In this document: piece after piece, positions 22,341 to 45,701 of the stretch
Numbering within the stretch: the first letter of the stretch is position 1
How the letters are laid out: each line of letters begins with the position of its first letter
Assembly: GCA_964628745.1 (NCBI GenBank)
Contig: CAZVOR010000002.1
Location: 1 to 48,284, forward strand
DNA length: 48,284 nt
Origin: an uncultured Halobacteriales archaeon
GTDB taxonomy: Archaea; Halobacteriota; Halobacteria; Halobacteriales; Hikarchaeaceae
Direction: 5' to 3'
The notes under the pieces: generated by a model
Databases searched by the model: none
Told to the model about the DNA's origin: nothing
Seen by the model: the letters and a program-made list of their open reading frames with translations, nothing else
Made by a program: the position numbers and the translations under genes

Positions 22341-23282
22341 TCACCGACCGTCCCCCCCGTCCGCCGCCCGTTCGGCGGCGAGCACGACGTTCTCGAGCAG
22401 CGCGGCGATGGTGACCGGGCCCACCCCGCCGGGGACCGGCGTGATGGCGCTCGCCCGCTCGAGCGCGCTCTCGAACTCGACGTCGCCGACCACCTCGTAG
22501 CCCCGCTCGGCGTCGGCGTCACCCGCGCCGGCTGCCGGCCGGCGCGTGGCGCTGATGTCGACGACGACGGCACCGTCGGCGAGCATCGACCCGTCGACGA
22601 GTCCCGGGACGCCGGCCGCGGTCACGACGACGTCGGCCCGCCGCGTGTGGGCGGCCAGGTCGCGCGTCCGGGAGTGACAGACGGTCACCGTCGCGTCGCC
22701 CGACGGGGCGTCGGCCAGCAGGAGGTTCGCGAGCGGCGCGCCGATGACGGGCGACCGGCCGACGACGGTGACGTCCCGGCCCGCCACCGACACGCCGTAC
22801 GACTCGAGCAGCCGGCGGACGGCGCCGGGCGTCGCCGGCACGTACCGCGGGTCGCCCGCCACGAGGCGGCCGAGGTTCTCGGGATGGAAGCAGTCGACGT
22901 CCTTGGCCGGGTCCAGGCGACTCCTGACGTCGAGCGTCGCGACGCGGTCCGGCAGGGGAGCCTGGACGAACACCCCGTGGACGTCCGGGTCGGCGCTCAG
23001 CCCGGCCACGGTGGAGAGGAGGCGCTCGGCGGGTGCGTCCGGGTCGACGCGGCGGTCCCGGCCCTCGATGCCGACGTCGTCGCAAGCGGCGTGTTTGAGC
23101 TCCACGAACCGCCGGTCCCCCGGGTCGTCGCTGGCGAGCACCGTCCCGAGCGTCGGGACGACACCCCGCTCCTCGAGGCGGCGGACGCGGTCGCGCACCG
23201 ACGCCCGCATCTCGGCCGCGACCGGCTCGCCGAGCAGTCGTTCGGCGGGGGACACACGCCGGCCATCGGCGGGGAGGGACAT
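22341..23282 (-). CDS. folD: Bifunctional 5,10-methylene-THF dehydrogenase / 5,10-methenyl-THF cyclohydrolase, paralogue 1 (divergent)
   Basis: The motifs are VQAPLP, DPAKDVDCFHPENLG, VVGRSPVIGAPLANLL, VTVCHSRT and ITPVPGGVGPVT. The substrate-site motif reads FVELKHAAC where FolD normally has YV..K.KA. Confidence 0.9.
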   Translation of the reverse strand: MSLPADGRRVSPAERLLGEPVAAEMRASVRDRVRRLEERGVVPTLGTVLASDDPGDRRFVELKHAACDDVGIEGRDRRVDPDAPAERLLSTVAGLSADPDVHGVFVQAPLPDRVATLDVRSRLDPAKDVDCFHPENLGRLVAGDPRYVPATPGAVRRLLESYGVSVAGRDVTVVGRSPVIGAPLANLLLADAPSGDATVTVCHSRTRDLAAHTRRADVVVTAAGVPGLVDGSMLADGAVVVDISATRRPAAGAGDADAERGYEVVGDVEFESALERASAITPVPGGVGPVTIAALLENVVLAAERAADGGDGR

Positions 23283-23340
23283 GAGTCTGTTTCCCGCCGA
23301 CGCCGCCAGGGTGAAACGCCCGCTAGTCCGTTCGCAAGGC

Positions 23341-23347
23341 GTTTATG
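23341..23347 (+). promoter_or_regulatory. TATA-like box (GCGTTTATGAC)
   Basis: It is centred about 30 nt upstream of ATG 23374. Confidence 0.4.
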
Positions 23348-23373
23348 ACGGCCGGCTGACCCATCGGACAGCG

Positions 23374-24564
23374 ATGCCGGTCCACCACGACGAGGACCTC
23401 CCCGCTGCGCTCGGGATGCTACTCGCGGGGATGCTCGTGCCGGCCCTCGTCGCGGCCGTCGGCCGGGACCTCCTGTCGATGTACCTGTCCGCCCGCGGGT
23501 TCGTCCACGTCTCCGCGGTCGTGTTCGGGGTCGTCGCGTGGGGGCTCATCGAGCGGCTGGACCTCGACCGGACGACTGTCCTCCTCGTCTCCATCGTGGC
23601 GCCGTGGCCCGTCCTGCTCGCGAGCCTCTTCGGCGTCCTCCTGCTCCACCAGGGGGAGCAGGTGCTCGCCGGCCCCGTCGCCGACGTCTTCACCTACCTC
23701 GCCGGGCGGTCCTTCGCCTCGCTCTTCGGCTACGGGGCCGACTTCGCGCTCGCGGGGGTCGGCGCGGTCGCCCTCTCGAAGTGGGCCGACGACCTGGCCG
23801 AGCGCCACGAGCGGGTCCCCGAGCCGCGGACCGTCCTCGCCGCCCTCGGGCTGGCCGCGGTCCTCGTCGGCCTCCTCGTCGGCGGCGCCAACCACGCCGG
23901 CGCGAGCTCGGCCGCGGTCTCGGCGGTCGCGCCCGGGCTCGACGACCGGCGACCGACGCTCGACGTGACGGTCGAGGGCCGCCCGGCCGAACTGCGGGTG
24001 ACGGCCGTCGCCCCGGACGGCACGAGCGCGACGAGGCGACTCTCGCGGGCCGACATGCGAGGAGGCACCGGGACGGCCCGCTTTCCCGTCCGGTTCGGCG
24101 ACGGGACGCCGCCCGGGTACCTGCCCGTCCGGTCCGGGACCTACCGGGTCCGGGTGACCTCGCTCGCCGGGGTGACCGTCGGCGCCGCGGCGCTCGTGGC
24201 GGACGGGCCGGCCGTGTCGATAACGGAGACCGTCGCCGCCTCGGGGCCCCTCACCTGGGACGACCCGCCCCGGGACGTCCACGAGCGGGGGCGGGACGAC
24301 ACGAAGGTCGGCATCGTCGTCGAGAACGGCGGGTCGTTCCACCGGGTCGTCGACGTGACGCTCGACGTGCCGGGTGGCGGCCACCGCCTGCGCGACGTCG
24401 TCCTGGCCCCCGGGGAACGGACCGGTGTCGTCTTCTCCCTCCCGGACGGCGCCGTCGAAGCGGTTCGGACGGAACGCGGCGGGACCGTGACGGCCAGCGT
24501 GGAACCGGTCGACGACCCCGACGGGCCGGTCTCGACCGTGGAGATCGAGCTCCCCGCAGAGTGA
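23374..24564 (+). CDS. Hypothetical membrane protein: an N-terminal polytopic region plus two beta-rich C-terminal modules
   Basis: Internal ATG of track ORF 22744..24564 (MPVHHDEDLPAALGMLLAGMLVPALV...). There are about 6 hydrophobic helices. After them come repeat-like segments (RVTAVAPDGT...YRVRVTSLAGV and VVDVTLDVPGG...TVTASVEPV) that suggest Ig-like or beta-sandwich domains. Confidence 0.65.
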   Translation: MPVHHDEDLPAALGMLLAGMLVPALVAAVGRDLLSMYLSARGFVHVSAVVFGVVAWGLIERLDLDRTTVLLVSIVAPWPVLLASLFGVLLLHQGEQVLAGPVADVFTYLAGRSFASLFGYGADFALAGVGAVALSKWADDLAERHERVPEPRTVLAALGLAAVLVGLLVGGANHAGASSAAVSAVAPGLDDRRPTLDVTVEGRPAELRVTAVAPDGTSATRRLSRADMRGGTGTARFPVRFGDGTPPGYLPVRSGTYRVRVTSLAGVTVGAAALVADGPAVSITETVAASGPLTWDDPPRDVHERGRDDTKVGIVVENGGSFHRVVDVTLDVPGGGHRLRDVVLAPGERTGVVFSLPDGAVEAVRTERGGTVTASVEPVDDPDGPVSTVEIELPAE

Positions 24565-24673
24565 CACCCGCGACCGGCGAGCGGCGGTCTCCGGACCGAC
24601 GCCCCTGCGGCCGGCTCCGGGGCGACTCGATGCTCAAGGGTTTTCCCGGTGGGCCGTGAGGCCCCGGCATCGG

Positions 24674-25666: not shown

Positions 25667-25742
25667 GCCGCCGGCGCGGCTGCGTCACACGCCACCACCC
25701 CACACAGAACCGTTATGGGTCAGCGAACTGTCGTTACACCCA

Positions 25743-27134
25743 ATGTCAGGCAACGAGCCGCCAGAAGCCGAGGGGCGCGCCCACCCGAACCATCCGAACG
25801 TCGACCAGTCGGACCGAATCGTCCCGCGGAACCTGCGCCAGTCTGGCGACCCGGGCATCCAGATGCTCGTCTCGACCCGGGTCCGCAAGTCCCCGTTCTT
25901 CCACAAGTCCTTCGTGGAGAACGAGGCCTGGCGGTGCACGGTCTACAACCGCATCTACCACCCGCGGGGGTTCGTCAAGCCCGAGGACGGCGGGGCGATG
26001 GCCGAGTACGACCCGCTGGTCAACAAGGTGACCATCTGGGACGTCGCCGTCGAGCGCCAGATCCGCGTCGCGGGGCCCGACGCCGAGGACCTGGTGAACT
26101 ACGTCATCACCCGCGACGCCACCGACATCGAGCCGATGCACGGCCGGTACGTCATCCTCTGTAACGAGCGGGGTGGCATCCTCAACGACCCCATCCTGCT
26201 GCGGCCCTCCGAGGACGAGTTCTGGTTCTCCATCTCCGACTCCACGCTGATGCAGTGGCTGCAGGGCGTCAACGTCGGCATGGACTTCGACGTGGAGATA
26301 GACGAGATCGACGTCGCGCCGATGCAGATCCAGGGCCCGCTGTCCGAGGACGTCATGGTCGACGTGGTGGGCGAGGCGGTCAGCGAGATCCCCTACTACG
26401 GGCTGATGGAGGCCGAGATCGACGGCTGCGAGGTGCTCGTCAGCCAGACCGGCTTCTCGGGCGAGAAGGGCTTCGAGATCTACGTCATCGACGCGATGGA
26501 GAACGCCGAGCGGGTCTGGGACCCGGTCCACGAGAAGGTGGTCGAGTACGGCGGGATGCAGATCGCCCCCGGTCACCACCGGCGCATCGCCGCCGGCATC
26601 CTCTCGTGGGGCCAGGACATGGACCACGAGACCTCCCCGTTCCAGGTCAACCTCGGCTACCAGGTGCCCGACGACAAGGACGCCGACTACGTCGGCAAGG
26701 AGGCGCTCGAGGCCCAGCAGGAGCGCATCGAGGACGGCGAGTACCCGTTCGTCCACAAGCTCGTCGGCCTGAAGTTCGCCGGCGCGCCGGTCACCGACTA
26801 CGCGCCGGACTTCTGGCTCGTCTCCGACCCGGAGACGGGCGAGGAGTGCGGCTACATGACCTCCCCGTGGTACAACCCCGACCTCGACACCAACATCGGG
26901 CTGGCGTTCGTGCCGGCGGCGAAGCTGCAGGCCGCGACGGACGCGCCGCTCGACGACGACGTCTTCGACGAGGAGCTCGACCTCGAGTTCGCGGTCCACC
27001 TGCCCGACGAGTACGCCGAGGCGCCCGGCGAGCCCGTCTACGCCACCGTGTCCAAGGTGCCGTTCAAGGAGTCCGTCAACCCGAGCGCCCGCGAGCAGGC
27101 CAAGCTCCACGCCAGGGACGAGGCGAACGAGTAG
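25743..27134 (+). CDS. Aminomethyltransferase-fold (GcvT family) enzyme of the DmdA-like demethylase type, and a candidate THF-dependent N- or S-demethylase
   Basis: 463 aa. The segments SPFFHKSFVENEAWRCTVYNRIYHP and IWDVAVERQIRVAGPDAEDLVNYVITRD correspond to the GcvT pattern D.S....I.V.GPDA..FL. The segment SQTGFSGEKGFEIYV corresponds to the GcvT pattern TGYTGE.GFEI. From memory, it resembles the DMSP demethylase DmdA more than the canonical glycine-cleavage T protein. A TTAT box at 25713-25716 lies about 28 nt upstream. Confidence 0.85.
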   Translation: MSGNEPPEAEGRAHPNHPNVDQSDRIVPRNLRQSGDPGIQMLVSTRVRKSPFFHKSFVENEAWRCTVYNRIYHPRGFVKPEDGGAMAEYDPLVNKVTIWDVAVERQIRVAGPDAEDLVNYVITRDATDIEPMHGRYVILCNERGGILNDPILLRPSEDEFWFSISDSTLMQWLQGVNVGMDFDVEIDEIDVAPMQIQGPLSEDVMVDVVGEAVSEIPYYGLMEAEIDGCEVLVSQTGFSGEKGFEIYVIDAMENAERVWDPVHEKVVEYGGMQIAPGHHRRIAAGILSWGQDMDHETSPFQVNLGYQVPDDKDADYVGKEALEAQQERIEDGEYPFVHKLVGLKFAGAPVTDYAPDFWLVSDPETGEECGYMTSPWYNPDLDTNIGLAFVPAAKLQAATDAPLDDDVFDEELDLEFAVHLPDEYAEAPGEPVYATVSKVPFKESVNPSAREQAKLHARDEANE

Positions 27135-27289: not shown

Positions 27290-27736
27290 CTACTTCGCGG
27301 GGACGGGCATCGCGTCGAGCTGCTCGAGGAGCGCGAGATTGTCGGACTCGAGCCACCGTTCGACGATCTGCTCGTCTTCGATGCGGTAGAACGCCATGTT
27401 GGAGCCCGAGACACGGTTGCCGGTGGGTTCGATCCCGCCGAATCGGCCCTCGTGGGTTCCCTCGAACGTGAACCGAACCGCCACCTCGTCCCCCTCGGCG
27501 ATCATGTCGTCTATCGTCACCGTCGCGTCGGGGAACGCCTCGTGGGCGACCTGGACGTGGCGTCGGAACCCTTCGAACCCCCGCGCCTCCTCGGCGGTCA
27601 GCGTCTCGTCCGACAGCGGGTCGTGGTTGACGACGTCTTCCGCGATCAGCTCCTCGAGGAGGTCCATCCGCTCCTCGTTGAACGCCTCCTCGTAGTATCG
27701 GCGCACTATCTCCTTGTTCTCGGCTGGTGAGGTCAT
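27290..27736 (-). CDS. SnoaL-like / ester cyclase (NTF2-fold) protein
   Basis: I prefer ATG 27736 (MTSPAENKEIVRRYYEEAFNE...) over 27766 because the GCTTAT box at 27769-27774 lies about 35 nt upstream of it. The NKEIVRRYYEEAFN opening and ...F.G.H.G.F.GI.PTGN.V is the classic pattern for this family. Confidence 0.8.
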   Translation of the reverse strand: MTSPAENKEIVRRYYEEAFNEERMDLLEELIAEDVVNHDPLSDETLTAEEARGFEGFRRHVQVAHEAFPDATVTIDDMIAEGDEVAVRFTFEGTHEGRFGGIEPTGNRVSGSNMAFYRIEDEQIVERWLESDNLALLEQLDAMPVPAK

Positions 27737-27886
27737 GGGTCTGTCCGCGCTCTGTACGCGCTCCATTGGGATAAGCTAGCAATCACCAATGCTATCACGG
27801 GTGCCGGGACGCCCCGGCGTCCGACGACGGTGTTCGCTCGCGAGGCCGCGACGTGGCTGGAAGGACGGCCCGCGAGACCCACCACG

Positions 27887-28750
27887 TCACTCCTCGAGCC
27901 GTCCCAGCCGCCAGTCCTCGGTGTCGGGCACCTGGTTGAACGTGTAGATGTGCACGCCGGCGATGCAGTACTCGGGGTCGTCGGCGTACGGCGCGAGGCC
28001 GTTGACGAGCTCGTCGGGCTTGTACTGGCCCCGGGAGCCCACCAGCTGGCGGACGAAGCCGAGGACGCCGGACGTCTTCCGCAGGAACTTGACCGAGTCA
28101 CCGACGCCGACCTTCTGGGAGATGCCGAGCAGGCGCTGGTACTTCAGCACGCCGGGGATGCCGACCTCGACGGGGAGGTCTACCCCCCGGTCCCGTCGGA
28201 TCGTCTCGAGCCAGCCCACGACGGCGGCCGGGTCGTAACACAGCTGCGTGACGATGTAGGTAGCGTACGGCGCCTTCTTGGCCATCGCCTCCTCGAGCGT
28301 CGCCTCGGAGAGGAACTCGTGGCCCTCGGGGTAGCCGGTGATGCCGACCTCGTCGAACGCGTAGCCGAGGTCGTCGAGGGTCGAGAGCAGGTCGTAGGCC
28401 GACTCGAACTCGCCGGCCGGCTCCTCGCGGTCGCCGCCGGGGACGAAGAGGTCCGTGACGCCGGCGTTGACGAGCCGGTCGGCGACGGACGAGAGGTGCT
28501 CCTCGTCCCGCACGTACCGCGCCGCGACGTGGGGGATCACCTCGTACCCCTCGGCCGACGCTCGCTCCGTCCACTCGAGGGTCGCCTCGAGGCCGAGCGT
28601 CGGCGAGGTGGTGATGGCGATCGCCGCGCCGTCGGGGAGGTGGCCCATCTGCTCGCCGAAGCTGTCGAACGGCATCAGCTCGAATCTCGGCTCGGCGAGC
28701 AGCGCGCGCACTCCGGCGTCCGTCGAGGCCGACCGCGTTCCGCGTGCCAT
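27887..28750 (-). CDS. metF: 5,10-methylenetetrahydrofolate reductase (MetF/MTHFR family)
   Basis: 287 aa. The segments FELMPF...IAITTSPTLG, VIPHVAARYV, DLFVPGGDRE, ITGYPEGH, ATYIVTQLCYD and GIPGVL are consistent with the MTHFR TIM barrel. Confidence 0.88.
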   Translation of the reverse strand: MARGTRSASTDAGVRALLAEPRFELMPFDSFGEQMGHLPDGAAIAITTSPTLGLEATLEWTERASAEGYEVIPHVAARYVRDEEHLSSVADRLVNAGVTDLFVPGGDREEPAGEFESAYDLLSTLDDLGYAFDEVGITGYPEGHEFLSEATLEEAMAKKAPYATYIVTQLCYDPAAVVGWLETIRRDRGVDLPVEVGIPGVLKYQRLLGISQKVGVGDSVKFLRKTSGVLGFVRQLVGSRGQYKPDELVNGLAPYADDPEYCIAGVHIYTFNQVPDTEDWRLGRLEE

Positions 28751-35917: not shown

Positions 35918-35918
35918 G

Positions 35919-37933: not shown

Positions 37934-38008
37934 GTCGGCGCCGCCCGCCTCGGCCCCGGTCGGCGCCGCTGGCATCAGCCTCGGTCGGCGCCGCCCGCGT
38001 CGGCGTCG
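37934..38008. repeat. Imperfect 25-bp x3 tandem repeat (core GTCGGCGCCGC) spanning the stop codon of the K+ channel gene
   Basis: The units start at 37934, 37959 and 37984. The channel stop (TCA on the plus strand, 37975-37977) lies in the middle unit. On the coding strand the units encode ..GGAD.. tails. Confidence 0.6.
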
Positions 38009-39300: not shown

Positions 39301-39371
39301 AAAGCTGTGCGGCGGGGCGCGACGCGGCCGACTCGAGGCCCCGGCCGCGGAGCGCCCCTCGGCGGTCGGCG

Positions 39372-41084
39372 CTAGAACAGCCCGGTGACGGTGCCGTCCT
39401 CGTCGACGTCCATCCCGGCCGCGGCGGGCTCCGCGGGGAGGCCGGGCAGCGTCAGCACGTCGCCGGTGAGGACGACGAGGAAGCCGGCGCCCGCGGAGGG
39501 GTAGACCTCCTTGACCTCCAGGGTCCAGCCCTCGGGAACGCCCTTCAGGCTCGGGTCGTCGCTGAGCGAGTGGAACGTCTTCGACATGCAGATCGGGACC
39601 TCGTCGAGGCCGAGCCCGGTGAGCCGCTGGATGTCGTCCTCGGCGTCGCCGTGGTACTCGACGCCGTCGGCGCCGTAGATCTCGGTCGCGACGGTCTCGA
39701 TCTTCGACTCGATGGGGGCGTCCACGGCGTAGAGCGGCGCGAACGTGCTCTCCGACTCGGCGGCCTCGGTGAGCCGCTCCGCGAGGTCGACGCCACCCTC
39801 GCCGCCGTCGCTGAAGACGTTCGACTCGGCGGCCCGGACGCCGAGCTCCTCCTCGCAGTGCTCGATCACCGCGGCGATCTCCGCGTCGGTGTCGCCGGGG
39901 AAGCGGTTGACGGCGACGACGACCGGGACCCCGAACTTGGCGAGGTTCTCGGCGTGCTTCTCGAGGTTCGGCAGGCCCGCGCGGACGGCCTCGACGTCCT
40001 CCGCCTCGAGCGCGTCGAGGTCCGGCGGCCACATGTCCTGGCCGTGGTACTTGAGCGCCCGTACCGACGCGACGAGCGCGACCGCGTCGGGTTCCATCCC
40101 CCCGAACCGGCAGACGATGTTCATGAACTTCTCGGCGCCGAGGTCCGAGCCGAAGCCGGCCTCGGTGACGACGTAGTCGGCGAGGTGGGCGGCGACCCCG
40201 TCGGCCATCAGCGAGTTGGTGCCGTGGGCGATGTTGGCGAACGGGCCGCCGTGGACGAACGCGGGCGTGCCCTCGATGGTCTGGACGACGTTCGGCTTGA
40301 GCGCCTCCTTCAGCAGGATAGTGACGGCGCCAGTCGCCTGGATGTCGTCGGCCGTGACCGGCTCGCCGTCCTCGTCGTAGGCGACGATGATGCGGGAGAC
40401 GCGTTCCTTTAAGTCCGCGATGCTGTCGGCCAGACACAGCACCGCCATCAGCTCCGAGGCGGCCGTGAGGATGAAGCCGTCCTCGCGGGGCACGCCCGTT
40501 ATCTCGCCCCCCAGGCCGATGACCGTCTCCCGGAGCACGCGGTCGTTCATGTCGATCGCGCGGGGCCAGTTGACCCAGTTGACCGCGATGTCGAGGTCGT
40601 TGCCCTGCTTGATGTGGTTGTCCAGCATCGTCGAGACGAGGTTGTGCGCGGCGGTCAGCGCGTGGATGTCGCCCGTGAAGTGGAGGTTGATGTCCTCCAT
40701 CGGGAGCACCTGGGAGTAGCCGCCGCCGGCGGCGCCGCCCTTCACGCCGAAGACCGGGCCGAGCGAGGGCTCGCGGATGGCCACGAGCGCCCGCGTGCCG
40801 ATCTGGGCGAAGGCCTGGCCGAGCCCGACCGTCGTCACCGTCTTCCCCTCGCCCATCGGCGTCGGCGTCATCCCGGTGACGAGGACGAGCTTGCTGTCCG
40901 GCTCCCCGGCCGCGCGGATGCGCTCGATGGCGTCGAACGTCACCTTGGCCTTGTACTCCCCGAACTGCTCGAGGTCGTCCGCGGACAGGCCGTAGGGTTC
41001 GACCACGTCGACGATGGAGGCCTTCTCGGCGGCCCGGGCGATCTCGTAGTCGGTCGGCATCGAGGCCTCCTCGGAGGAGTTCAT
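39372..41084 (-). CDS. fhs: Formate--tetrahydrofolate ligase (10-formyl-THF synthetase)
   Basis: 570 aa. The motifs are VTGMTPTPMGEGKTVTTVGL, VHGGPFANIAHG and GFGSDLGAEKF. A TTCATAA box (minus strand, about 41110-41116) lies about 29 nt upstream of ATG 41084. ATG 41060 is an alternative start. Confidence 0.95.
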   Translation of the reverse strand: MNSSEEASMPTDYEIARAAEKASIVDVVEPYGLSADDLEQFGEYKAKVTFDAIERIRAAGEPDSKLVLVTGMTPTPMGEGKTVTTVGLGQAFAQIGTRALVAIREPSLGPVFGVKGGAAGGGYSQVLPMEDINLHFTGDIHALTAAHNLVSTMLDNHIKQGNDLDIAVNWVNWPRAIDMNDRVLRETVIGLGGEITGVPREDGFILTAASELMAVLCLADSIADLKERVSRIIVAYDEDGEPVTADDIQATGAVTILLKEALKPNVVQTIEGTPAFVHGGPFANIAHGTNSLMADGVAAHLADYVVTEAGFGSDLGAEKFMNIVCRFGGMEPDAVALVASVRALKYHGQDMWPPDLDALEAEDVEAVRAGLPNLEKHAENLAKFGVPVVVAVNRFPGDTDAEIAAVIEHCEEELGVRAAESNVFSDGGEGGVDLAERLTEAAESESTFAPLYAVDAPIESKIETVATEIYGADGVEYHGDAEDDIQRLTGLGLDEVPICMSKTFHSLSDDPSLKGVPEGWTLEVKEVYPSAGAGFLVVLTGDVLTLPGLPAEPAAAGMDVDEDGTVTGLF

Positions 41085-41247: not shown

Positions 41248-41346
41248 CCGACGGGAGTCCTTCTAACGAACGTACATGAGAACCGCAGCGACGCGCGCGG
41301 CGTCGGCGACCGGTCGTCGGTCGGTCCTCGGCGGGAGCGGCGGGCG

Positions 41347-43881
41347 ATGAGCGGTCGAGAGCTCCCCCCGTCCGCCGGCACGGTCGTCATCGGCGCGGGC
41401 ATCGTCGGCAACAGCCTGACCTACCACCTCGCCCGGATGGGCCGGGACGACATCCTCCTGCTCGACAAGGGGCCGCTTCCCGACCCGGGCGGCTCGACCG
41501 GGCACGCCTCGAACTTCCTGATGCCCGTCGAGCACAGCAAGGAGATGACCCACCTCACCCGGCGGTCCATCGAGATGTACGACGAGATGGACACGTTCAA
41601 CGAGTCCGGCGGGATCGAGGTCGCCCGGACCGAGGAGCGGATGCAGGAGCTCCACCGGCGGATGCAGTCGGCGAAGGCCTGGGGAGAACGCGCGTCGATG
41701 CTCACGCCCGAGGAGGTCAAGGAGCTCGTGCCGTACATCAACGAGGACCTCATCCTCGGCGGCTTCCACTCGGAGGGCGCCGGGGTCTGTGACCCGCTCC
41801 GCGCGGGCGAGATCATGCGCGAGCGCTCGGACGACATGATGGACGGCGGCCTGACGGTCTCGCCGAACACCGAGGTGCTCGACCTCCACGTCGAGGACGG
41901 GGCGATCGCCGCCGTCGAGACCGACCGCGGTACGGTGGAGTGTAACGAGGTCGCCATCTGCTGTGGCCTCTGGAGCCCGAAGATCGCGAAGATGGCCGGG
42001 GTCGAGATCCCGCTGACGCCCGCCGTCCACCAGATGATATCGGTGGGGCCCATCGAGTTCTTCGAGCAGTTCGAAGGCGAGATCAACCACCCGGTCGTCC
42101 GCGACATGGACACCCAGATGTACGAGCGGCCGAGCGGGAACGACCTCGAGGTCGGCTCGTACCAGCACCGGCCCATCCTCTGGGACGTCGAGGACGTCCC
42201 GTCCATCGACGAGGCGCCGCTGTCGCCGACGCAGCCGCCGCTCACCGAGGACGCCTTCGAGCAATCCATGGCGGACGCCCTCGAGCTGATGCCGGAGGTG
42301 CTCGACGACCCGAGCGCCGGCGTGCGGCTCGAGATCGACGGCCTGCTCTCGGAGGCCCCCGACGGCGCGCCGCTGCTCGGGCCGCTCCAGGACGTCGAGG
42401 GGCTCTGGTCGGTGGCGGCCGTCTGGATCAAGGAGGCGCCGGCCATCGGCGAGGCCGTCGCCCAGCAGATGACCCGCGGCTGGTCGGACATCGACATCCA
42501 CGAGTCGAACGTCAACCGGTTCTACGAGTACGGCACGCCCCGGGAGTGGGTGAAGGCCCGGGCCCACGAGCTCTACCAGGAGATCTACGGCATCATCCAC
42601 CCGTCCGAGCAGTGGCAGTCCGGGCGGCCGCTCAGGAAGAGCGCGTTCTACGACGCCCAGGACGACCTCGACGCCCGCTGGTTCGAGACCGCCGGCTGGG
42701 AGCGCCCGCAGTGGTTCGAGTCCAACCGCGACCTGCTGACGAACTACGGCAGCGAGCTGGCCCACCTGATGCGGCCCAACGAGTGGGACTCGCGGTGGTG
42801 GTCGCCCATCATCCTCGCCGAGCACCTCCACATGCGCGACCACGTGGCGATGGTCGGCGACATGGGCTTCACGATCTTCGATCTCGTCGGGCCCGGCGCC
42901 ACCGAGTACGCCGAGAAGATGGCCGTCGGCCGGATGGACGTCGACGTCGGCAAGTCCGTCTACACGCCCGTCCTCGCGGAGAACGGCGGCTTCGTCTCGG
43001 ACCTCACCGTCGTCCGCGTCGGCGAGGACCGCTACCGCGTCATCACCGGCGGCGGGATGGGCGGCCCGGACAAGGCCTGGTTCAGGAGCCACCTGCCCGA
43101 CGACGGCTCGGTCCACCTGGTCGACCAGACGTCGGCGCTCTGCACGCTCGGCGTCTGGGGCCCCGACGCCAGGAACCTCGTGCAGTCGGTCGCCGAGGAG
43201 GACCTCTCCCACGAGGCGTTCGCGCCCTACACGGCCCAGGACGTCACCATCGGCGACGTCGACTGCTGGGCGCTTCGCCTCTCGTACGTCGGCGAGCTGG
43301 GCTGGGAGATATACGCGCCCATGGACCGGGGGGCCCGGCTCTGGGACACCCTCTGGGAGGCGGGGCAGGAGTACGACGTCCGGCCCGTCGGCATGGGCGT
43401 CTACGGGACGACGGGCCGCATGGAGAAGGGCTACCGGCTGTACGGCCACGAGCTCGAGCTCGACTACACGCCGGCCGAGGCCGGGCTCACCTTCCACGGC
43501 GTCAAGGACGCGGACTTCGTCGGCAAGGAGGCCTACGCGGCGGCCATCGACGGGGAGAACGCGGCGACGCTGTGCACGCTCTCGGTGGACGACCACCTGT
43601 CCTCGGCGGGCGAGCGCCGGTTCATGCTCGGCAGCGAGCCCATCCTGGACGGGTCCGGCGAGGTCCTCGTCGACGAGGAGGGCCGGCGGTCGTACGTCAC
43701 GAGCGCCGGGACCGGCCCCTCCGTAGGCAAGCACCTCCTGCTCGGCTACCTGCCGGCGGACCACGCCGAGGAGGGCCGGAGCCTCCAGGTCGAGTACATG
43801 GGCGAGCAGTACCCGGTCACCGTCGAGGTCGTCGGCAGCCGCCCGCTGTTCGACCCCGACAACGAGCGGATCCGGAGCTGA
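41347..43881 (+). CDS. Dimethylglycine/sarcosine dehydrogenase-type enzyme: an N-terminal DAO FAD oxidoreductase fused to a C-terminal GcvT (THF-binding) domain
   Basis: 844 aa. The FAD-binding fold is VVIGAGIVGNSLTYHLA. The GSTGHAS motif sits at the position of the flavinylated His. The C-terminal segments ..VGDMGFTIFDLVGPGA.., SYVGELGWEIY and YGHEL.. are typical of the GcvT fold. Confidence 0.92.
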   Translation: MSGRELPPSAGTVVIGAGIVGNSLTYHLARMGRDDILLLDKGPLPDPGGSTGHASNFLMPVEHSKEMTHLTRRSIEMYDEMDTFNESGGIEVARTEERMQELHRRMQSAKAWGERASMLTPEEVKELVPYINEDLILGGFHSEGAGVCDPLRAGEIMRERSDDMMDGGLTVSPNTEVLDLHVEDGAIAAVETDRGTVECNEVAICCGLWSPKIAKMAGVEIPLTPAVHQMISVGPIEFFEQFEGEINHPVVRDMDTQMYERPSGNDLEVGSYQHRPILWDVEDVPSIDEAPLSPTQPPLTEDAFEQSMADALELMPEVLDDPSAGVRLEIDGLLSEAPDGAPLLGPLQDVEGLWSVAAVWIKEAPAIGEAVAQQMTRGWSDIDIHESNVNRFYEYGTPREWVKARAHELYQEIYGIIHPSEQWQSGRPLRKSAFYDAQDDLDARWFETAGWERPQWFESNRDLLTNYGSELAHLMRPNEWDSRWWSPIILAEHLHMRDHVAMVGDMGFTIFDLVGPGATEYAEKMAVGRMDVDVGKSVYTPVLAENGGFVSDLTVVRVGEDRYRVITGGGMGGPDKAWFRSHLPDDGSVHLVDQTSALCTLGVWGPDARNLVQSVAEEDLSHEAFAPYTAQDVTIGDVDCWALRLSYVGELGWEIYAPMDRGARLWDTLWEAGQEYDVRPVGMGVYGTTGRMEKGYRLYGHELELDYTPAEAGLTFHGVKDADFVGKEAYAAAIDGENAATLCTLSVDDHLSSAGERRFMLGSEPILDGSGEVLVDEEGRRSYVTSAGTGPSVGKHLLLGYLPADHAEEGRSLQVEYMGEQYPVTVEVVGSRPLFDPDNERIRS

Positions 43882-43960
43882 GCGCCCGGCCCGCGGGCGA
43901 ACCTCCCCGGACCGGGGTGACCGGTCGCATTACAACCACGGCGGACGAACCCACACACGA

Positions 43961-44731
43961 ATGGTAGACGTACTGGCGTGCATCAAGCGCGTCCCGGACA
44001 CGGGAGCGAAGATCGTACTGACCGACGACCGGCAGGGCATCGACGCGAGCAACCTCGGCTTCACGATGAGCCCCCACGAGGAGTGCGCCATCGAGGAGGC
44101 CGTCCAGCTCGTCGAGGAGCACGGGGGCGCCTCGACGGTGCTGACGCTCGGTTCGGACGAGGCGACCGAGCAGCTCCGCACGGGGCTGGCCATGCAGGCC
44201 GACGAGGCGGTCCTTCTGGAGACCGACGGCGAGGAGTGGGAGCCCCGGGCGACCGCGCACGCCATCGCCTCGGAGGTCGCCGACGGCGACGCCGTGCCGT
44301 TCGACCTCCTGCTGTTCGGCAACGAGTCGGCCGACCAGGAGAACTACCAGGTCGGCGTCCGCGTGGCGCGGCGCCTCGGCCTGCCCTGCGTGACGGGCAT
44401 CAAGGGCCTCGAGCTACGGGACGGCACCGCCGTCGCGAGCCGCGAGGTGACGGGCGGTCGGGAGGTCTACGAGCTCGAGCTGCCGGCGGTCGTCACCGTC
44501 AAGGAGGGCATCAACTCGCCGCGGTACGCGTCGATGCGGGCCCGGATGCAGGCGCGCAAACAGGAGGTCGCGCGGTCGACGCCCGACCCCGGCGAGCACG
44601 CCGGGTCCTTCGAGAGGGTCCGCCTCGAGGCGCCTGCCGAGGACGAGGGCGGGGCCGAGGTGCTCGGCGAGGGGCCGGAGGCCGCCCCCGAGGTCGTCCG
44701 CGTCCTCCGGGACGAGGTGGAGGTGCTCTGA
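43961..44731 (+). CDS. etfB: Electron transfer flavoprotein, beta subunit
   Basis: The segments are MVDVLACIKRVPDT, MSPHEECAIEEAV, LLLFGNESAD and LPAVVTVKEGINSPRY. Confidence 0.92.
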   Translation: MVDVLACIKRVPDTGAKIVLTDDRQGIDASNLGFTMSPHEECAIEEAVQLVEEHGGASTVLTLGSDEATEQLRTGLAMQADEAVLLETDGEEWEPRATAHAIASEVADGDAVPFDLLLFGNESADQENYQVGVRVARRLGLPCVTGIKGLELRDGTAVASREVTGGREVYELELPAVVTVKEGINSPRYASMRARMQARKQEVARSTPDPGEHAGSFERVRLEAPAEDEGGAEVLGEGPEAAPEVVRVLRDEVEVL

Positions 44732-44732
44732 C

Positions 44733-45701
44733 GTGGTCCTCGCGTTCGTCGAACACGACGAGGGGGAACCGGACGAGGCCTCCCTGGAGACGCTCACGCT
44801 GGCCCGGGAGCTCGCCGCCGCGGCCGACGAGGCCGTGTCGGCGGCCGTCTTCGGGGCCGGCGGCGGGGCCACGGCCGGCGAGCTGGGCACCTACGGCGTC
44901 GACGTCGTCTACCACGTGACGCCGGCGGAGCTGGACGGGTACGCGCCGGCCGCCTGGGGCGAGAGCCTCGTCCTGCTCGCCGCGGAGCTCGAGCCGGCGG
45001 CGGTCGTCGCGCCCGGCAGCGACCGCGGCCACGAGGTCCTGACCCACGTCGGGGCCACCCTCGGCCTCCCGTTGGCGGCCAACTGCGTCGCGGTCGACCC
45101 CGGCGAGGCGTACGAGGTGACCCGGCAGCGCTGGGGGGGCAGCCTCCTCGAGCACGCCCGGCTCGACGCGGAGCCGAAGCTGCTGACGGCCGCCGAGCAC
45201 GAGGTCGGGCTCGAGGCGGCCGCCGAGGCGACCGACCCCGGGGTCGAGCCGTTCGAGCCGGCGCTCGACGACGCCCACCGGCGGGTCCGCGTCGACCGGT
45301 TCGAGGAGGCCGACGTCGAGGGGGTCCCGCTCGGCGAGGCCCGCGTCGTGGTCAGCGGCGGCCGCGGGGTCGGCGGTCCGGAGGGCTACGACAAGCTCGA
45401 GGAGCTGGCCGACCTGCTCGGCGGGACCGTCGGCGCCTCGCGGGCCGCGGTCAACGAGGGCTGGCGGCCCCACGACGACCAGGTCGGGCTCACGGGGGCG
45501 AAGATCAGCCCGGACATCTACATCGCCTGCGGTATCAGCGGCGCCATCCAGCACATGGTCGGCTGCAAGGGCGCGAAGAACATCCTGGCCATCAACACGG
45601 ACCCGGAGGCGGCCATCATGGGCAAGGCCGAGTACGCGGTCGTCGGCGACCTGCACGAGGTCGTGCCCGCCATCATCGAGGAGATCGAGCAGTCGGAGTG
45701 A
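44733..45701 (+). CDS. etfA: Electron transfer flavoprotein, alpha subunit
   Basis: The GTG start lies 1 nt after the etfB stop. The C-terminal FAD-binding block is VVSGGRGVG...GASRAAV.EGW.PHDDQVGLTGAKISPDIYIACGISGAIQHMVG. Confidence 0.92.
   Translation: MVLAFVEHDEGEPDEASLETLTLARELAAAADEAVSAAVFGAGGGATAGELGTYGVDVVYHVTPAELDGYAPAAWGESLVLLAAELEPAAVVAPGSDRGHEVLTHVGATLGLPLAANCVAVDPGEAYEVTRQRWGGSLLEHARLDAEPKLLTAAEHEVGLEAAAEATDPGVEPFEPALDDAHRRVRVDRFEEADVEGVPLGEARVVVSGGRGVGGPEGYDKLEELADLLGGTVGASRAAVNEGWRPHDDQVGLTGAKISPDIYIACGISGAIQHMVGCKGAKNILAINTDPEAAIMGKAEYAVVGDLHEVVPAIIEEIEQSE

What the first reader, a model, noticed from the sequence alone, without database searches (positions are those of the whole stretch)
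22341..45701. A candidate catabolic island for glycine-betaine-type methylated osmolytes, built from BCCT carriers, two GcvT-fold demethylases, ETF and a complete THF C1-oxidation set
About 23 kb of sequence carries the following genes, interleaved on both strands. There are two BCCT carriers (31757-33529 and 35970-37829) and a DmdA/GcvT-like enzyme (25743-27134). There is a DAO+GcvT fusion of the dimethylglycine/sarcosine dehydrogenase type (41347-43881), followed directly by etfB-etfA (43961-45701). Every enzyme needed to oxidise a THF-bound methyl group to formate is present: MetF (27887-28750), two FolD paralogues (22341-23282 and 29089-29982) and formate-THF ligase (39372-41084). A Thr/Ser ammonia-lyase (29979-31241) could pull serine, made from glycine plus CH2-THF, into pyruvate. 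Read together, these genes describe uptake, then stepwise N-demethylation, then C1 oxidation with recovery of ATP and reducing equivalents. In haloarchaea, betaine-type solutes are mostly discussed as osmoprotectants. To my knowledge, a dedicated THF/ETF-based degradation module has not been characterised in this lineage. Several expected parts are missing from the window: glyA, an ETF:quinone oxidoreductase or FixCX, a sarcosine-specific enzyme and a dedicated regulator.
Basis: partly seen in the sequence, partly recalled or inferred. Interest (0 to 1): 0.8.

Follow-up and report, generated by a model that had tools for sequence, protein, structure and literature searches.

The report
Haloarchaeal betaine demethylation and C1-oxidation cluster
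This stretch of a salt-loving archaeon's genome is a conserved gene cluster that most likely imports glycine-betaine-type osmolytes, strips off their methyl groups onto folate and burns them to formate; its first enzyme belongs to a widespread family, also found in the ocean bacteria SAR11 and SAR86, whose substrate nobody has tested.

Summary

I compared 52 Halobacteriales species loci with full 10-kb flanks around the DmdA-like gene.
- A MetF-like gene is present in 46.
- A BCCT carrier or a DAO-GcvT dehydrogenase is present in 44.
- Only 3 loci have none of the pathway genes.

No ETF:quinone oxidoreductase was found.

Best explanation: a BCCT carrier imports a betaine. The DmdA-like enzyme moves its first methyl group to THF as CH3-THF, and the MetF-like flavoprotein oxidises that. 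A DMGO-like dehydrogenase with EtfBA removes further methyl groups as CH2-THF. FolD and FTHFS give formate plus ATP. Serine dehydratase drains the glycine backbone.

No substrate has been tested. The DmdA-like enzyme fails the DmdA and GcvT equivalog cut-offs. It is 61% identical to SAR86 proteins and 53% to SAR11 proteins of unknown function. The MetF-like enzyme is closest to the demethylase-coupled S6MTHFR but lacks its hallmark residues.

Anderson et al. (2011) had already noted DMGO-like genes beside BCCT genes in haloarchaea. I class this as a new variant of a known kind.

The parts
22341..23282 (-). [quoted passage not shown] It is the more divergent of the two copies.
   Evidence: Both Pfam FolD domains are present. 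NF010764 scores 374 bits, below its cut-off of 477. Orthologues at 58-67% identity lie near the DmdA-like gene in 16 of 80 loci.
25743..27134 (+). DmdA-like GcvT-fold enzyme of 463 aa. Proposed role: a THF-dependent methyltransferase that forms 5-methyl-THF from a betaine-type onium substrate.
   Evidence: - Pfam GCV_T scores 135 bits.
- The best solved relative is SAR11 DmdA (3tfh), E 7e-43.
- The NCBIfam DmdA equivalog scores 235 bits against a cut-off of 410.
- Identity is 76-84% across Halobacteriales, 61% to SAR86 and 53% to SAR11.
27290..27766 (-). SnoaL-like small protein. It is an accessory gene of unknown role.
   Evidence: Pfam SnoaL scores 135 bits. A homologue lies near the DmdA-like gene in 9 of 80 loci.
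27887..28750 (-). MTHFR-family flavoprotein of 287 aa. Proposed role: oxidation of 5-methyl-THF to 5,10-methylene-THF.
   Evidence: - Pfam MTHFR scores 30.8 bits against a cut-off of 24.
- The best solved relative is 7XG9, S6MTHFR, at E 8e-30 and 33% identity.
- It lies within 10 kb of the DmdA-like gene in 63 of 80 loci and within 1 kb in 40.
29089..29982 (+). FolD paralogue a. It is translationally coupled to the next gene.
   Evidence: NF010764 scores 540 bits against a cut-off of 477. Its stop codon overlaps the IlvA start codon as ATGA.
29979..31241 (+). IlvA-type threonine/serine ammonia-lyase with one ACT domain. Proposed role: serine to pyruvate plus NH3.
   Evidence: TIGR01127 scores 432 bits against a cut-off of 379. 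It is in the neighbourhood in 32 of 80 loci, next to FolD and BCCT or next to the DAO-GcvT pair.
31757..33529 (+). BCCT carrier 1, with a canonical tryptophan box.
   Evidence: - Pfam BCCT scores 597 bits.
- The motif WTVFYWGWWIAWSPFVG is present.
- The NCBIfam glycine-betaine BCCT equivalog scores 523 bits against a cut-off of 650.
34705..35118 (+). Zn-ribbon protein of unknown function. It is a conserved neighbour of BCCT1 and Usp.
   Evidence: Pfam gives only weak zinc-ribbon matches. It is present in 14 of 80 loci, in the order Usp, ZnR, BCCT1.
35456..35890 (-). Universal stress protein.
   Evidence: Pfam Usp scores 106 bits. It is present in 25 of 80 loci.
35970..37829 (-). BCCT carrier 2, with a variant tryptophan box.
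   Evidence: Pfam BCCT scores 431 bits. The motif is WTVWNWSWWFSWAPFAG. It recurs in the order FTHFS, K+ channel, BCCT2 in several loci.
37975..39300 (-). K+ channel with an RCK/TrkA_N domain. It is probably osmoregulatory rather than catabolic.
   Evidence: Pfam Ion_trans_2 and TrkA_N match. The TVGYGD selectivity filter is visible in the translation. It is present in 17 of 80 loci.
39372..41084 (-). Formate-THF ligase. Proposed to run from 10-formyl-THF to formate plus ATP.
   Evidence: NF010030 scores 814 bits against a cut-off of 652. It is present in 17 of 80 loci and lies next to formate dehydrogenase alpha in L049 and L058.
41347..43881 (+). DAO + FAO_M + GcvT fusion of the dimethylglycine oxidase/dehydrogenase type (paralogue A).
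   Evidence: - All four Pfam domains are present.
- The best solved relative is Arthrobacter DMGO (1pj5), E 9e-141.
- The histidine that binds FAD covalently is conserved: GGSTGHAS against GGSTSH48AP.
43961..44731 (+). Electron transfer flavoprotein, beta subunit.
   Evidence: Pfam ETF matches. The unit DMGO-A, EtfB, EtfA recurs in L001 and in bacterial loci L151 and L153; L005 shows DMGO-A followed by EtfB at the end of the fetched locus.
44733..45701 (+). Electron transfer flavoprotein, alpha subunit.
   Evidence: Pfam ETF and ETF_alpha match. Its start codon lies 1 nt after the etfB stop codon.

Best explanation
The region is a conserved haloarchaeal module for using glycine-betaine-type methylated osmolytes as a source of methyl groups, energy, carbon and nitrogen. 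Gene identities and conserved linkage are shown. Every catalytic step below is inferred.

**Proposed steps**
1. A BCCT carrier imports the trimethylammonium (or sulfonium) solute.
2. The DmdA-like GcvT-fold enzyme (25743-27134) transfers the activated first methyl group directly to THF. This is redox-neutral and gives 5-methyl-THF. If the substrate is glycine betaine, the other product is dimethylglycine.
3. The adjacent MTHFR-family flavoprotein (27887-28750) oxidises 5-methyl-THF to 5,10-methylene-THF. Its electron acceptor is unknown.
4. The DMGO-like DAO-GcvT enzyme (41347-43881) oxidatively demethylates dimethylglycine, and perhaps sarcosine. It passes electrons to EtfBA and the C1 unit to THF as methylene-THF.
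5. The two FolD enzymes convert methylene-THF to 10-formyl-THF, with NAD(P)H. FTHFS then releases formate and makes ATP.
6. Glycine plus methylene-THF gives serine through GlyA, which lies outside this window. The IlvA-type dehydratase converts serine to pyruvate and ammonia.

**My probabilities**
- The cluster functions in catabolism of a methylated onium osmolyte: about 0.75.
- The DmdA-like enzyme's substrate is glycine betaine or a close N-trimethyl betaine: about 0.5.
- Its substrate is DMSP: about 0.2.
- Its substrate is something else: about 0.3.
For: **Gene identities.**

**Conserved synteny.** This was measured across 80 Halobacteriales species loci. In the 52 loci with full flanks:
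- MetF-like is present in 46.
- A BCCT or a DAO-GcvT gene is present in 44.
- Only 3 loci have no pathway gene.

**Two recurrent gene orders.**
- Type I, as in the window: K+ channel, Usp, ZnR, BCCT1, IlvA, FolD, [MetF-like], DmdA-like.
- Type II: HTH_10, DmdA-like, GlyA, MetF-like, DUF8073, DAO-GcvT, DAO-GcvT, IlvA.

Type II places three candidate demethylases, SHMT and a serine dehydratase side by side. That is the route from betaine to pyruvate.

**Other neighbours in relatives.**
- Formate dehydrogenase alpha: TIGR01591 scores 743 bits against a cut-off of 666.
- RidA and SHMT.
- Folate-biosynthesis genes in 16 of 80 loci.
- DHFR in L163.

**The MetF-like enzyme.** Its nearest solved relative is S6MTHFR. 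S6MTHFR oxidises CH3-THF and is genetically paired with THF-dependent demethylases (PMC11868366).

**Linkage outside archaea.**
- SAR86-type contig: BCCT, DAO-GcvT and the DmdA-like gene on one strand.
- High-GC bacteria: DMGO, EtfB, EtfA, DmdA-like gene.
- SAR11: metF overlaps the start of the homologue.

**Signs of operons in the window.**
- FolD and IlvA share an ATGA overlap.
- EtfB and EtfA are 1 nt apart.

**Other molecular details.**
- BCCT1 has the canonical Trp box.
- The DMGO-like enzyme keeps the histidine for covalent FAD.

**From my own knowledge, not tested here.**
- Pseudomonas and Arthrobacter betaine or dimethylglycine clusters also contain glyA, a serine dehydratase, folD or purU, and formate dehydrogenase.
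- The net reaction betaine + THF to dimethylglycine + CH3-THF occurs in anaerobes through the corrinoid system MtgB/MtgC/MtgA.
Against: - No biochemical or physiological data exist for any of these proteins.
- Anderson 2011 reports that betaine did not enhance growth of Haloquadratum walsbyi and that Halorhabdus utahensis could not grow on it.
- The DmdA-like enzyme's only characterised relative acts on DMSP, not betaine.
- A tertiary amine is a poorer leaving group than a thioether, so direct methyl transfer from betaine to THF is unproven chemistry for this fold.
- The window has only one DAO-GcvT enzyme, no glyA, no regulator, no formate dehydrogenase and no ETF re-oxidising enzyme.
- The MetF-like protein lacks the residues said to make S6MTHFR a dedicated CH3-THF oxidase.
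- BCCT, Usp and the K+ channel form a unit that could be purely osmoregulatory.
- Four loci carry a distant GbcA-like Rieske oxygenase next to the MetF-like gene (136 bits against a cut-off of 670). It could do the first step instead.
- Some loci carry creatininase-family genes next to the DAO-GcvT gene. This hints at other sources of sarcosine.
Confidence: 0.7

Rival explanations
1. The GcvT-only enzyme is a true DMSP demethylase (DmdA). On this reading the cluster's first step handles the sulfonium osmolyte DMSP, giving methylmercaptopropionate plus CH3-THF. The DAO-GcvT and ETF genes serve a separate dimethylglycine/sarcosine route.
For: - The best characterised relative by sequence, family profile and fold is SAR11 DmdA.
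- Pairing with MetF is equally expected for DmdA.
- BCCT carriers can import DMSP (own knowledge).
- CysE lies next to the MetF-like gene in 9 loci, and an acyl-CoA synthetase lies about 9 kb away in 6 loci of the Natronococcus group. Both would fit sulfur and methylmercaptopropionate handling.
Against: - It scores 235 bits against the DmdA equivalog cut-off of 410.
- A rough NJ tree puts the haloarchaeal clade outside the clade that holds 3tfh.
- The family has N- and C-terminal extensions, conserved between archaea and bacteria, that the 369-aa DmdA does not align to.
- SAR11 carries this family in addition to its real dmdA (Sun 2011).
- No recurrent set of dmdB, dmdC and dmdD-like genes lies next to it.
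- The strongest recurrent enzyme neighbours are DAO-GcvT, GlyA and a serine dehydratase.
Confidence: 0.15
2. The clustering reflects general one-carbon and folate housekeeping placed next to osmoprotection genes. BCCT, Usp and the K+ channel take up betaine purely as a compatible solute, and no catabolic pathway exists.
For: - The K+ channel, Usp, ZnR and BCCT genes form their own conserved unit.
- Folate-biosynthesis genes (pabAB, folCP, DHFR) are often nearby, as would suit a general folate supercluster.
- There are negative growth reports for two haloarchaea.
- The window itself lacks glyA, a regulator and formate dehydrogenase.
Against: - The DAO-GcvT dehydrogenases and the DmdA-like enzyme have no housekeeping role.
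- Some haloarchaea lack the other C1-converting enzymes that Haloquadratum and Haloarcula have (Natrialba and Natronomonas, PMC3403918). These genes therefore look accessory.
- The same BCCT, DAO-GcvT, DmdA-like linkage occurs in SAR86, and the DMGO, EtfBA, DmdA-like linkage occurs in high-GC bacteria. These organisms are far apart from haloarchaea in phylogeny and habitat.
- FTHFS lies next to formate dehydrogenase in some loci, which points to the oxidative direction.
Confidence: 0.1
3. The module mainly harvests methyl groups for biosynthesis rather than for energy or carbon. CH3-THF made from betaine feeds methionine and SAM synthesis, as proposed for LigM/S6MTHFR in Sphingobium. The oxidative branch only disposes of surplus.
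For: - The S6MTHFR paper proposes that demethylase-derived CH3-THF sets methionine supply.
- In SAR11, transcripts of metF and its neighbouring homologue (SAR11_1264/1265) both fall to 0.10-0.20 of exponential-phase levels in a sulfur-limitation study.
- CysE lies next to the MetF-like gene in 9 loci.
Against: - The full oxidation route is present: two FolD copies and FTHFS in the window, and formate dehydrogenase in relatives.
- ETF-linked dehydrogenases, GlyA and a serine dehydratase are catabolic features.
- No methionine synthase was seen among the recurrent neighbour families that I checked.
Confidence: 0.05

Closest known systems
Bacterial glycine betaine to dimethylglycine to sarcosine to glycine catabolic clusters (Pseudomonas gbcAB/dgcAB/soxBDAG/glyA/sdaB/purU/fdhA; the Arthrobacter dmg/sox cluster of Meskys 2001; the SAR11 pathway of Sun 2011, PMC3160333)
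   Same: - The overall logic matches: a transporter, stepwise N-demethylation and THF-bound C1 oxidation to formate.
- Glycine is converted to serine and then to pyruvate by SHMT and a serine dehydratase.
- The DAO-GcvT enzyme is a clear homologue of Arthrobacter DMGO (E 9e-141).
   Different: - The window has none of the known first-step enzymes: no GbcAB/BmoAB Rieske oxygenase, no BHMT and no MtgB. Only 4 of 80 related loci carry a distant GbcA-like Rieske protein.
- A DmdA-like enzyme plus an MTHFR pair sits where the first step would be.
- FTHFS is used instead of PurU.
- An ETF-linked DMGO-like enzyme replaces DgcAB and SoxBDAG.
- The host is an archaeon.
DmdA, the DMSP demethylase of SAR11 and roseobacters (PDB 3tfh)
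   Same: - It has the GcvT three-domain fold without an oxidase domain.
- It is the closest characterised relative.
- It is expected to make CH3-THF by redox-neutral methyl transfer from an onium donor.
- It is genetically linked to metF.
   Different: - The window protein is 25% identical to 3tfh in the structural alignment.
- It falls below the equivalog cut-off (235 against 410 bits).
- It is 463 aa rather than 369 aa. It has conserved N-terminal (VDQSDRIVPxNLRQSG) and C-terminal (VPFxESxNP) segments.
- Its gene context is different.
THF-dependent demethylases (LigM, DesA, Dmt, CmuAB) paired with type-4 MTHFR (S6MTHFR; Yu et al. 2025, PMC11868366)
   Same: - The same two-gene logic applies: a demethylase that makes CH3-THF sits next to an MTHFR that oxidises it.
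- The window's MTHFR-like protein has S6MTHFR as its best solved relative (E 8e-30).
   Different: - The demethylase here is DmdA-like, not LigM-like (LigM matches only at E 3e-4).
- Five of the seven S6MTHFR residues checked are replaced in all 56 haloarchaeal orthologues: L48 to S, R78 to Y, F215 to I/V, C219 to V and P268 to T/A/S. P49 and F269 are kept.
- That paper does not mention archaea, DmdA or betaine.
SAR11_1264/SAR11_1265: metF plus an 'aminomethyltransferase of unknown substrate' (Sun 2011; Smith 2016, PMC5069961)
   Same: - Pelagibacter proteins are 53% identical over the full length.
- metF overlaps the start of the gene.
- The proteins are named only as aminomethyltransferase family.
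- This fits the published description of SAR11_1265.
   Different: - I inferred the match to SAR11_1265 from gene order and organism name. I did not compare against the HTCC1062 sequence.
- Sun et al. guessed that it removes the second methyl group of DMSP.
MtgB/MtgC/MtgA, the corrinoid-dependent glycine betaine:THF methyl transfer of anaerobes (own knowledge)
   Same: The proposed net reaction is the same: betaine + THF gives dimethylglycine + CH3-THF.
   Different: The proteins are unrelated (MttB superfamily plus a corrinoid protein). That system needs three components and cobalamin. Here a single GcvT-fold protein is proposed.
The comparative-genomics note of Anderson et al. 2011 (PMC3102087)
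   Same: It had already reported DMGO-like genes next to BCCT genes in four haloarchaea. It suggested use of betaine, dimethylglycine or sarcosine.
   Different: The passages I searched do not mention the DmdA-like/MetF pair, the FolD/FTHFS/GlyA/IlvA/ETF linkage or the regulators. It offered no first-step candidate.

Membership tests
DmdA (DMSP demethylase, NCBIfam NF009133 equivalog) | GcvT-type fold without an oxidase domain | tested here: met
   Pfam GCV_T scores 135 bits. In Foldseek the top hit is 3tfh, E 1e-25, but GcvT structures are practically tied with it. The model's mean pLDDT is only 67.
DmdA (DMSP demethylase, NCBIfam NF009133 equivalog) | Score at or above the curated equivalog cut-off | tested here: not met
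   It scores 235 bits against a cut-off of 410.
DmdA (DMSP demethylase, NCBIfam NF009133 equivalog) | Placement inside the clade of characterised DmdA proteins | tested here: inconclusive
   An NJ tree of 68 sequences puts the haloarchaeal clade in a different branch from 3tfh. The tree is rough and has no support values.
DmdA (DMSP demethylase, NCBIfam NF009133 equivalog) | Genomic association with dmdB/C/D-type genes for methylmercaptopropionate | tested here: not met
   An acyl-CoA synthetase appears in only 6 of 80 loci, about 9 kb away. No recurrent acyl-CoA dehydrogenase or hydratase was seen.
DmdA (DMSP demethylase, NCBIfam NF009133 equivalog) | DMSP-dependent formation of 5-methyl-THF | not testable with these tools
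   This needs an enzyme assay.
GcvT of the glycine cleavage system | Equivalog score, and gcvH/gcvP partner genes | tested here: not met
   TIGR00528 scores 129 bits against a cut-off of 236. No GcvH or GcvP was identified among the recurrent neighbour families I annotated.
Type-4 MTHFR (S6MTHFR type, Yu 2025) | MTHFR fold with S6MTHFR as the nearest relative | tested here: met
   Pfam MTHFR scores 30.8 bits against a cut-off of 24. 7XG9 matches at E 8e-30, against 4e-10 for the Thermus MTHFR.
Type-4 MTHFR (S6MTHFR type, Yu 2025) | Hallmark residues L48/P49, R78, F215/C219 and P268/F269, which block NADH binding and favour CH3-THF oxidation | tested here: not met
   In 56 of 56 haloarchaeal orthologues L48 is S, R78 is Y and C219 is V. 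F215 is I or V, and P268 is T, A or S. P49 is kept in all 56 and F269 in 55. The loop YTFNQ resembles the type-2 YTLNK of Thermus.
Type-4 MTHFR (S6MTHFR type, Yu 2025) | Gene paired with a THF-dependent demethylase gene | tested here: met
   It lies within 1 kb of the DmdA-like gene in 40 of 80 loci and within 10 kb in 63 of 80.
Type-4 MTHFR (S6MTHFR type, Yu 2025) | Oxidises CH3-THF and does not use NADH | not testable with these tools
   This needs an enzyme assay.
Dimethylglycine oxidase/dehydrogenase family (DAO-FAO_M-GcvT fusions) | Four-domain architecture | tested here: met
   DAO, FAO_M, GCV_T and GCV_T_C are all present. 1pj5 matches at E 9e-141 over residues 12-843.
Dimethylglycine oxidase/dehydrogenase family (DAO-FAO_M-GcvT fusions) | Histidine for covalent FAD attachment (His48 of Arthrobacter DMGO; residue role from own knowledge) | tested here: met
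   The window's GGSTGHAS aligns with GGSTSH48AP.
Dimethylglycine oxidase/dehydrogenase family (DAO-FAO_M-GcvT fusions) | Substrate (dimethylglycine or sarcosine) and electron acceptor (O2 or ETF) | not testable with these tools
   An ETF acceptor is suggested only by etfBA lying directly downstream. The same order occurs in L001, L151 and L153; in L005 DMGO-A is followed by EtfB at the locus end.
BCCT glycine betaine transporters | BCCT fold and an aromatic (Trp) box for trimethylammonium | tested here: met
   Pfam scores are 597 and 431 bits. The Trp-box motifs are shown.
BCCT glycine betaine transporters | Score at or above the glycine-betaine equivalog cut-off (NF047988) | tested here: not met
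   The scores are 523 and 356 bits against a cut-off of 650. Substrate specificity remains open.
Formate-THF ligase | Equivalog score | tested here: met
   NF010030 scores 814 bits against a cut-off of 652.
Threonine/serine ammonia-lyase (IlvA, one C-terminal ACT-like domain) | Equivalog score | tested here: met
   TIGR01127 scores 432 bits against a cut-off of 379. Use of serine as substrate is inferred.

The most novel reading that the evidence does not exclude
The 463-aa DmdA-like protein may represent a family of single-component glycine betaine:THF N-methyltransferases that need no corrinoid and no oxygen. That would be a further route for the first demethylation of betaine, beside BHMT, GbcAB/BmoAB and MtgB. 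The family is paired with a distinct MTHFR clade that oxidises the resulting CH3-THF. It is shared, probably through horizontal transfer, by Halobacteria, SAR86, SAR11 (the long-unassigned SAR11_1265), Actinomycetota and Gemmatimonadota. If so, it would be a major unrecognised sink for betaine in both hypersaline and ocean waters.
Probability: 0.45. Interest if true: 0.8.

Novelty: new variant of a known kind. Interest (0 to 1): 0.62.

Why it matters
**Hypersaline ecology.** Glycine betaine is one of the most abundant organic solutes in brines. Its aerobic fate there is poorly known, and haloarchaea are usually treated as importers of betaine for osmoprotection. A conserved, widespread catabolic module would make them consumers. 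It would link betaine to haloarchaeal energy, carbon and nitrogen budgets.

**A testable enzyme family.** The analysis singles out one uncharacterised enzyme family that is conserved over its full length.
- It is 53-61% identical between Halobacteria, SAR86 and SAR11.
- In many genomes it sits beside metF and dimethylglycine-dehydrogenase-type genes.
- Every source that gives it a name calls it only 'aminomethyltransferase' or 'GcvT'.

A single enzyme assay could assign a function to thousands of marine and hypersaline genes. These include the SAR11 paralogue left open since 2011.

**Reach of a recent idea.** It would also extend the pairing of a 'demethylase plus CH3-THF-oxidising MTHFR', described in 2025, to archaea and to onium osmolytes.

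Tried and rejected
- **Exact look-up of the window's DmdA-like protein.** It returned nothing. later showed the protein is in the collection, on an unnamed 48,284-nt NCBI contig.
- **A shared operator in the cluster's intergenic regions.** A 9-mer comparison gave only GC-rich chance matches, so I found no evidence for or against co-regulation.
- **Rfam scan of the whole window.** There is no riboswitch, only one tRNA.
- **The DmdA structure paper (Schuller 2012).** It is not held, so I could not check the DMSP-binding residues.
- **AlphaFold2 model of the DmdA-like protein.** Quality is mediocre (mean pLDDT 67, 25-sequence alignment). Foldseek cannot separate DmdA from GcvT (E 1.2e-25 against 1.5e-25). 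Structure therefore confirms the fold but says nothing about the substrate.
- **LigM/DesA-type aryl O-demethylase.** I considered this because of the 463-aa length and the metF neighbour. I rejected it because the match is only E 3e-4 to LigM, against 7e-43 to DmdA.
- **SAR86A reference genome and one closed SAR86 contig.** The homologue sits alone there. The BCCT, DAO-GcvT, DmdA-like operon is therefore not universal in SAR86.
- **Literature searches.** I found no experimental study of betaine catabolism in haloarchaea and no characterised GcvT-fold betaine methyltransferase. The library lacks most subscription journals, so this absence is weak evidence.
- **Compositional island.** GC is flat across the region, so I rejected this reading.

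Full report
**1. Observation**

The window is about 72% G+C, with very strong third-position GC bias. That bias let me pick the real reading frames.

- FolD at 22341-23282(-) and at 29089-29982(+).
- A GcvT-only protein at 25743-27134(+).
- An MTHFR-family protein at 27887-28750(-). The match is weak: Pfam 30.8 bits.
- An IlvA-type PLP dehydratase with an ACT domain at 29979-31241(+).
- BCCT carriers at 31757-33529(+) and 35970-37829(-).
- FTHFS at 39372-41084(-).
- A DAO-FAO_M-GcvT fusion at 41347-43881(+).
- etfB and etfA at 43961-45701(+).

- An RCK-domain K+ channel at 37975-39300(-).
- A Usp, a SnoaL-like protein and a Zn-ribbon protein.
- Three unannotated membrane proteins.

The flanks are unrelated housekeeping genes. 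On the left are a helicase, a Mut7-C RNase and TFB. On the right are a GNAT and MoeA.

No ETF:QO domain appeared in the Pfam scans of the called ORFs.

The haloarchaeal origin is confirmed. The 80 best genome matches to the GcvT-only protein are all Halobacteriales, at 76-84% identity. The window is an entire unnamed 48,284-nt NCBI contig.

**2. Is the clustering more than chance?**

I fetched 10 kb on each side of the GcvT-only gene in 80 Halobacteriales species. I mapped all window proteins onto these loci, plus the recurrent neighbour families found by clustering.

| Gene near the DmdA-like gene | Loci, out of 52 with full flanks |
|---|---|
| MetF-like | 46 |
| HTH_10/BAT regulator | 34 |
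| DAO-GcvT | 27 |
| DUF8073 | 26 |
| FolD | 25 |
| BCCT | 25 |
| IlvA | 19 |
| Folate biosynthesis | 15 |
| FTHFS | 14 |
| GlyA | 14 |
| RidA | 7 |
| Formate dehydrogenase alpha | 6 |

Only three of the 52 loci have none of the pathway genes. Over all 80 loci, the MetF-like gene lies within 1 kb in 40.

Two gene orders recur:
- **Type I** (the window): K+ channel, Usp, ZnR, BCCT1, IlvA, FolD, [MetF-like], DmdA-like. FTHFS, K+ channel and BCCT2 are often attached.
- **Type II**: HTH_10, DmdA-like, GlyA, MetF-like, DUF8073, DAO-GcvT, DAO-GcvT, IlvA. The two tandem DAO-GcvT genes occur in 15 loci.

In Natronococcus-type loci, FTHFS is followed by formate dehydrogenase alpha (TIGR01591 743 bits against 666).

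Several of the 'missing' parts are supplied by relatives' clusters.

**3. The individual parts**

*The GcvT-only enzyme*
- SAR11 DmdA is its closest characterised relative (3tfh, E 7e-43). Thermotoga GcvT follows closely (3e-38).
- It fails both the DmdA equivalog cut-off (235 against 410 bits) and the GcvT cut-off (129 against 236 bits).
- A library-wide search finds 241 clusters (50% identity level) at E<=1e-30.
- A rough NJ tree places the haloarchaeal clade away from the 3tfh clade.
- Full-length homologues occur in SAR86 at 61% identity and in Pelagibacter at 53%. More distant ones occur in Actinomycetota and Gemmatimonadota MAGs.
- They share N-terminal (VDQSDRIVPxNLRQSG) and C-terminal (VPFxESxNP) segments.
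- Every named copy is called only 'aminomethyltransferase' or 'GcvT'.
- In Pelagibacter, metF overlaps the start of the gene. This fits the published SAR11_1264/1265 pair, whose substrate Sun et al. 2011 left open. It was still unassigned in 2016.
- A SAR86-type contig carries BCCT, DAO-GcvT and this gene consecutively on one strand.
- High-GC bacterial contigs carry DMGO (54% identity), EtfB, EtfA and this gene in a row.
- Among 80 metagenomic loci of relatives, a MetF-like gene is adjacent in 23; DAO-GcvT-type matches were recorded in about 20.

*The MetF-like protein*
- Its best solved relative is S6MTHFR of Sphingobium (7XG9, E 8e-30, 33% identity). The Thermus MTHFR matches at only 4e-10.
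- S6MTHFR oxidises CH3-THF, barely reacts with NADH and is paired with THF-dependent demethylases (PMC11868366).
- All 56 haloarchaeal orthologues replace hallmark residues: L48 to S, R78 to Y, F215 to I/V, C219 to V and P268 to T/A/S.
- I therefore treat it as working like that pairing, not as a member of type 4. Its electron acceptor is open.

*The DAO-GcvT enzyme*
- It is a clear DMGO/DMGDH homologue (1pj5, E 9e-141). It keeps the histidine for covalent FAD.
- With etfBA directly downstream, it is probably ETF-linked.
- Relatives carry two further paralogues (B1 and B2). They are about 34% identical to the window's copy and are also closest to DMGO.

*BCCT1*
- It has the canonical Trp box.

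**4. Mechanism**

The gene identities and the conserved linkage are shown. All catalytic steps are inferred.

1. BCCT imports the solute.
2. The DmdA-like enzyme transfers its methyl group to THF, giving CH3-THF. The other product is dimethylglycine if the substrate is betaine.
3. The MTHFR-like enzyme oxidises CH3-THF to CH2-THF.
4. DAO-GcvT with ETF carries out the oxidative demethylations, each giving CH2-THF.
5. FolD (two copies) and FTHFS give formate plus ATP. Relatives add formate dehydrogenase.
6. Glycine plus CH2-THF gives serine through GlyA. The IlvA-type dehydratase gives pyruvate plus NH3. Relatives add RidA.

The argument that the first substrate is betaine rather than DMSP rests on association. 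The enzyme's most consistent catalytic neighbours in three distant lineages are dimethylglycine-dehydrogenase-type enzymes, SHMT and a serine dehydratase. Genes for methylmercaptopropionate are not among them.

The net reaction is known to be feasible, because anaerobes run it through corrinoid proteins (own knowledge). It has never been shown for this fold.

**5. What counts against it**
- There is no experimental evidence at all.
- Negative betaine growth data exist for Haloquadratum walsbyi and Halorhabdus utahensis. Two Haloquadratum walsbyi MAG loci (L037, L063) are among the three loci with no pathway neighbours.
- A distant GbcA-like Rieske protein lies next to the MetF-like gene in four loci.
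- Creatininase-family genes lie beside some DAO-GcvT genes.
- The K+ channel, Usp and BCCT unit could be purely osmoregulatory.
- The window itself is incomplete.

**6. Novelty**
- The general pathway is known in bacteria.
- The DMGO-BCCT juxtaposition in haloarchaea was noted in 2011.
- The demethylase-MTHFR pairing was described in bacteria in 2025.
- New here is the combination: a conserved archaeal cluster whose likely first step uses an uncharacterised DmdA-like family with its own MTHFR clade, shared with SAR86 and SAR11.
- I class it as a new variant of a known kind. It carries a directly testable hypothesis about enzyme function.

Noticed in passing
window 37975-39300 (-): An RCK-domain K+ channel (TVGYGD filter, TrkA_N domain) sits between FTHFS and BCCT2. 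The order FTHFS, K+ channel, BCCT2, and the order K+ channel, Usp, ZnR, BCCT1, recur in other genera (17 of 80 loci carry the channel). It is unexplained why a K+ channel is kept inside a C1/betaine cluster. It may link K+ homeostasis with organic osmolyte use.
   Followed up: partly
window 8119-8253 (+): Rfam calls a tRNA over 134 nt (8119-8252). ARAGORN calls tRNA-Gly(GCC) over 88 nt (8166-8253). The disagreement on boundaries suggests an intron or an unusual tRNA.
   Followed up: no
window 9-209 (+), and from about 47.3 kb to the end of the window (+): A PabA-like fragment (49% identity to a neighbour of the cluster in L012) lies at the left end of the contig. A partial MoeA gene (molybdopterin molybdenumtransferase) lies at the right end. 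In relatives, pabAB, folC-folP and DHFR often lie beside the DmdA-like gene (16 of 80 loci, plus L163). In SAR11, Sun 2011 lists moeA together with the fdh genes and fhs in its formate dehydrogenase region.
   Followed up: partly
L163 16643-18403; L045 17524-18288: Creatininase-family and AstE/AspA-family genes sit directly upstream of a DAO-GcvT gene in the Halorientalis locus, and a creatininase-family gene does so in a Halobellus locus. Some of these dehydrogenases may therefore handle sarcosine derived from creatine or creatinine.
   Followed up: no
L165 11372-12433 and 14949-15851: On the SAR86-type contig, a gamma-butyrobetaine-hydroxylase-like/TauD gene lies next to the BCCT, DAO-GcvT, DmdA-like run. 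A homocysteine S-methyltransferase (BHMT-like) gene lies about 3.6 kb downstream. This suggests a wider betaine/carnitine catabolic locus.
   Followed up: no
L044 10001-11356 and about 11831-13200: Natronococcus jeotgali carries two tandem copies of the DmdA-like gene, 82% and 70% identical to the window's protein, with no MetF-like gene within 10 kb.
   Followed up: no
L012 14196-15308, and 31 other loci: A DUF8073 protein (about 370 aa, acidic) is present in 32 of 80 loci. It usually sits between the MetF-like gene and either an HTH_10 regulator or the DAO-GcvT genes. Its function is unknown and it is absent from the window.
   Followed up: partly
L015 6483-8008; also L030, L034, L064: A Rieske oxygenase lies directly after the MetF-like gene in Haloplanus and Halalkalicoccus loci. 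Its best NCBIfam match is GbcA, at 136 bits against a cut-off of 670. In L015 it is followed by a small protein of the HVO_B0008 family.
   Followed up: partly
L033, L035, L068, L073 (about 1.5-6 kb in each locus): In Halobellus loci, TRAP permease homologues lie upstream of HTH_10, MOSC and the DmdA-like gene, in place of a BCCT carrier. In L068 the set is a TAXI-type TRAP transporter: an NMT1_3 binding protein, DUF1850 and a fused permease.
   Followed up: no
window 24656-25666 (+) and 23374-24564 (+): Two membrane or secreted proteins with no Pfam match lie between FolD-b and the DmdA-like gene. Only one related locus (L024) has the 336-aa protein in this position. They are probably not part of the module.
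   Followed up: partly
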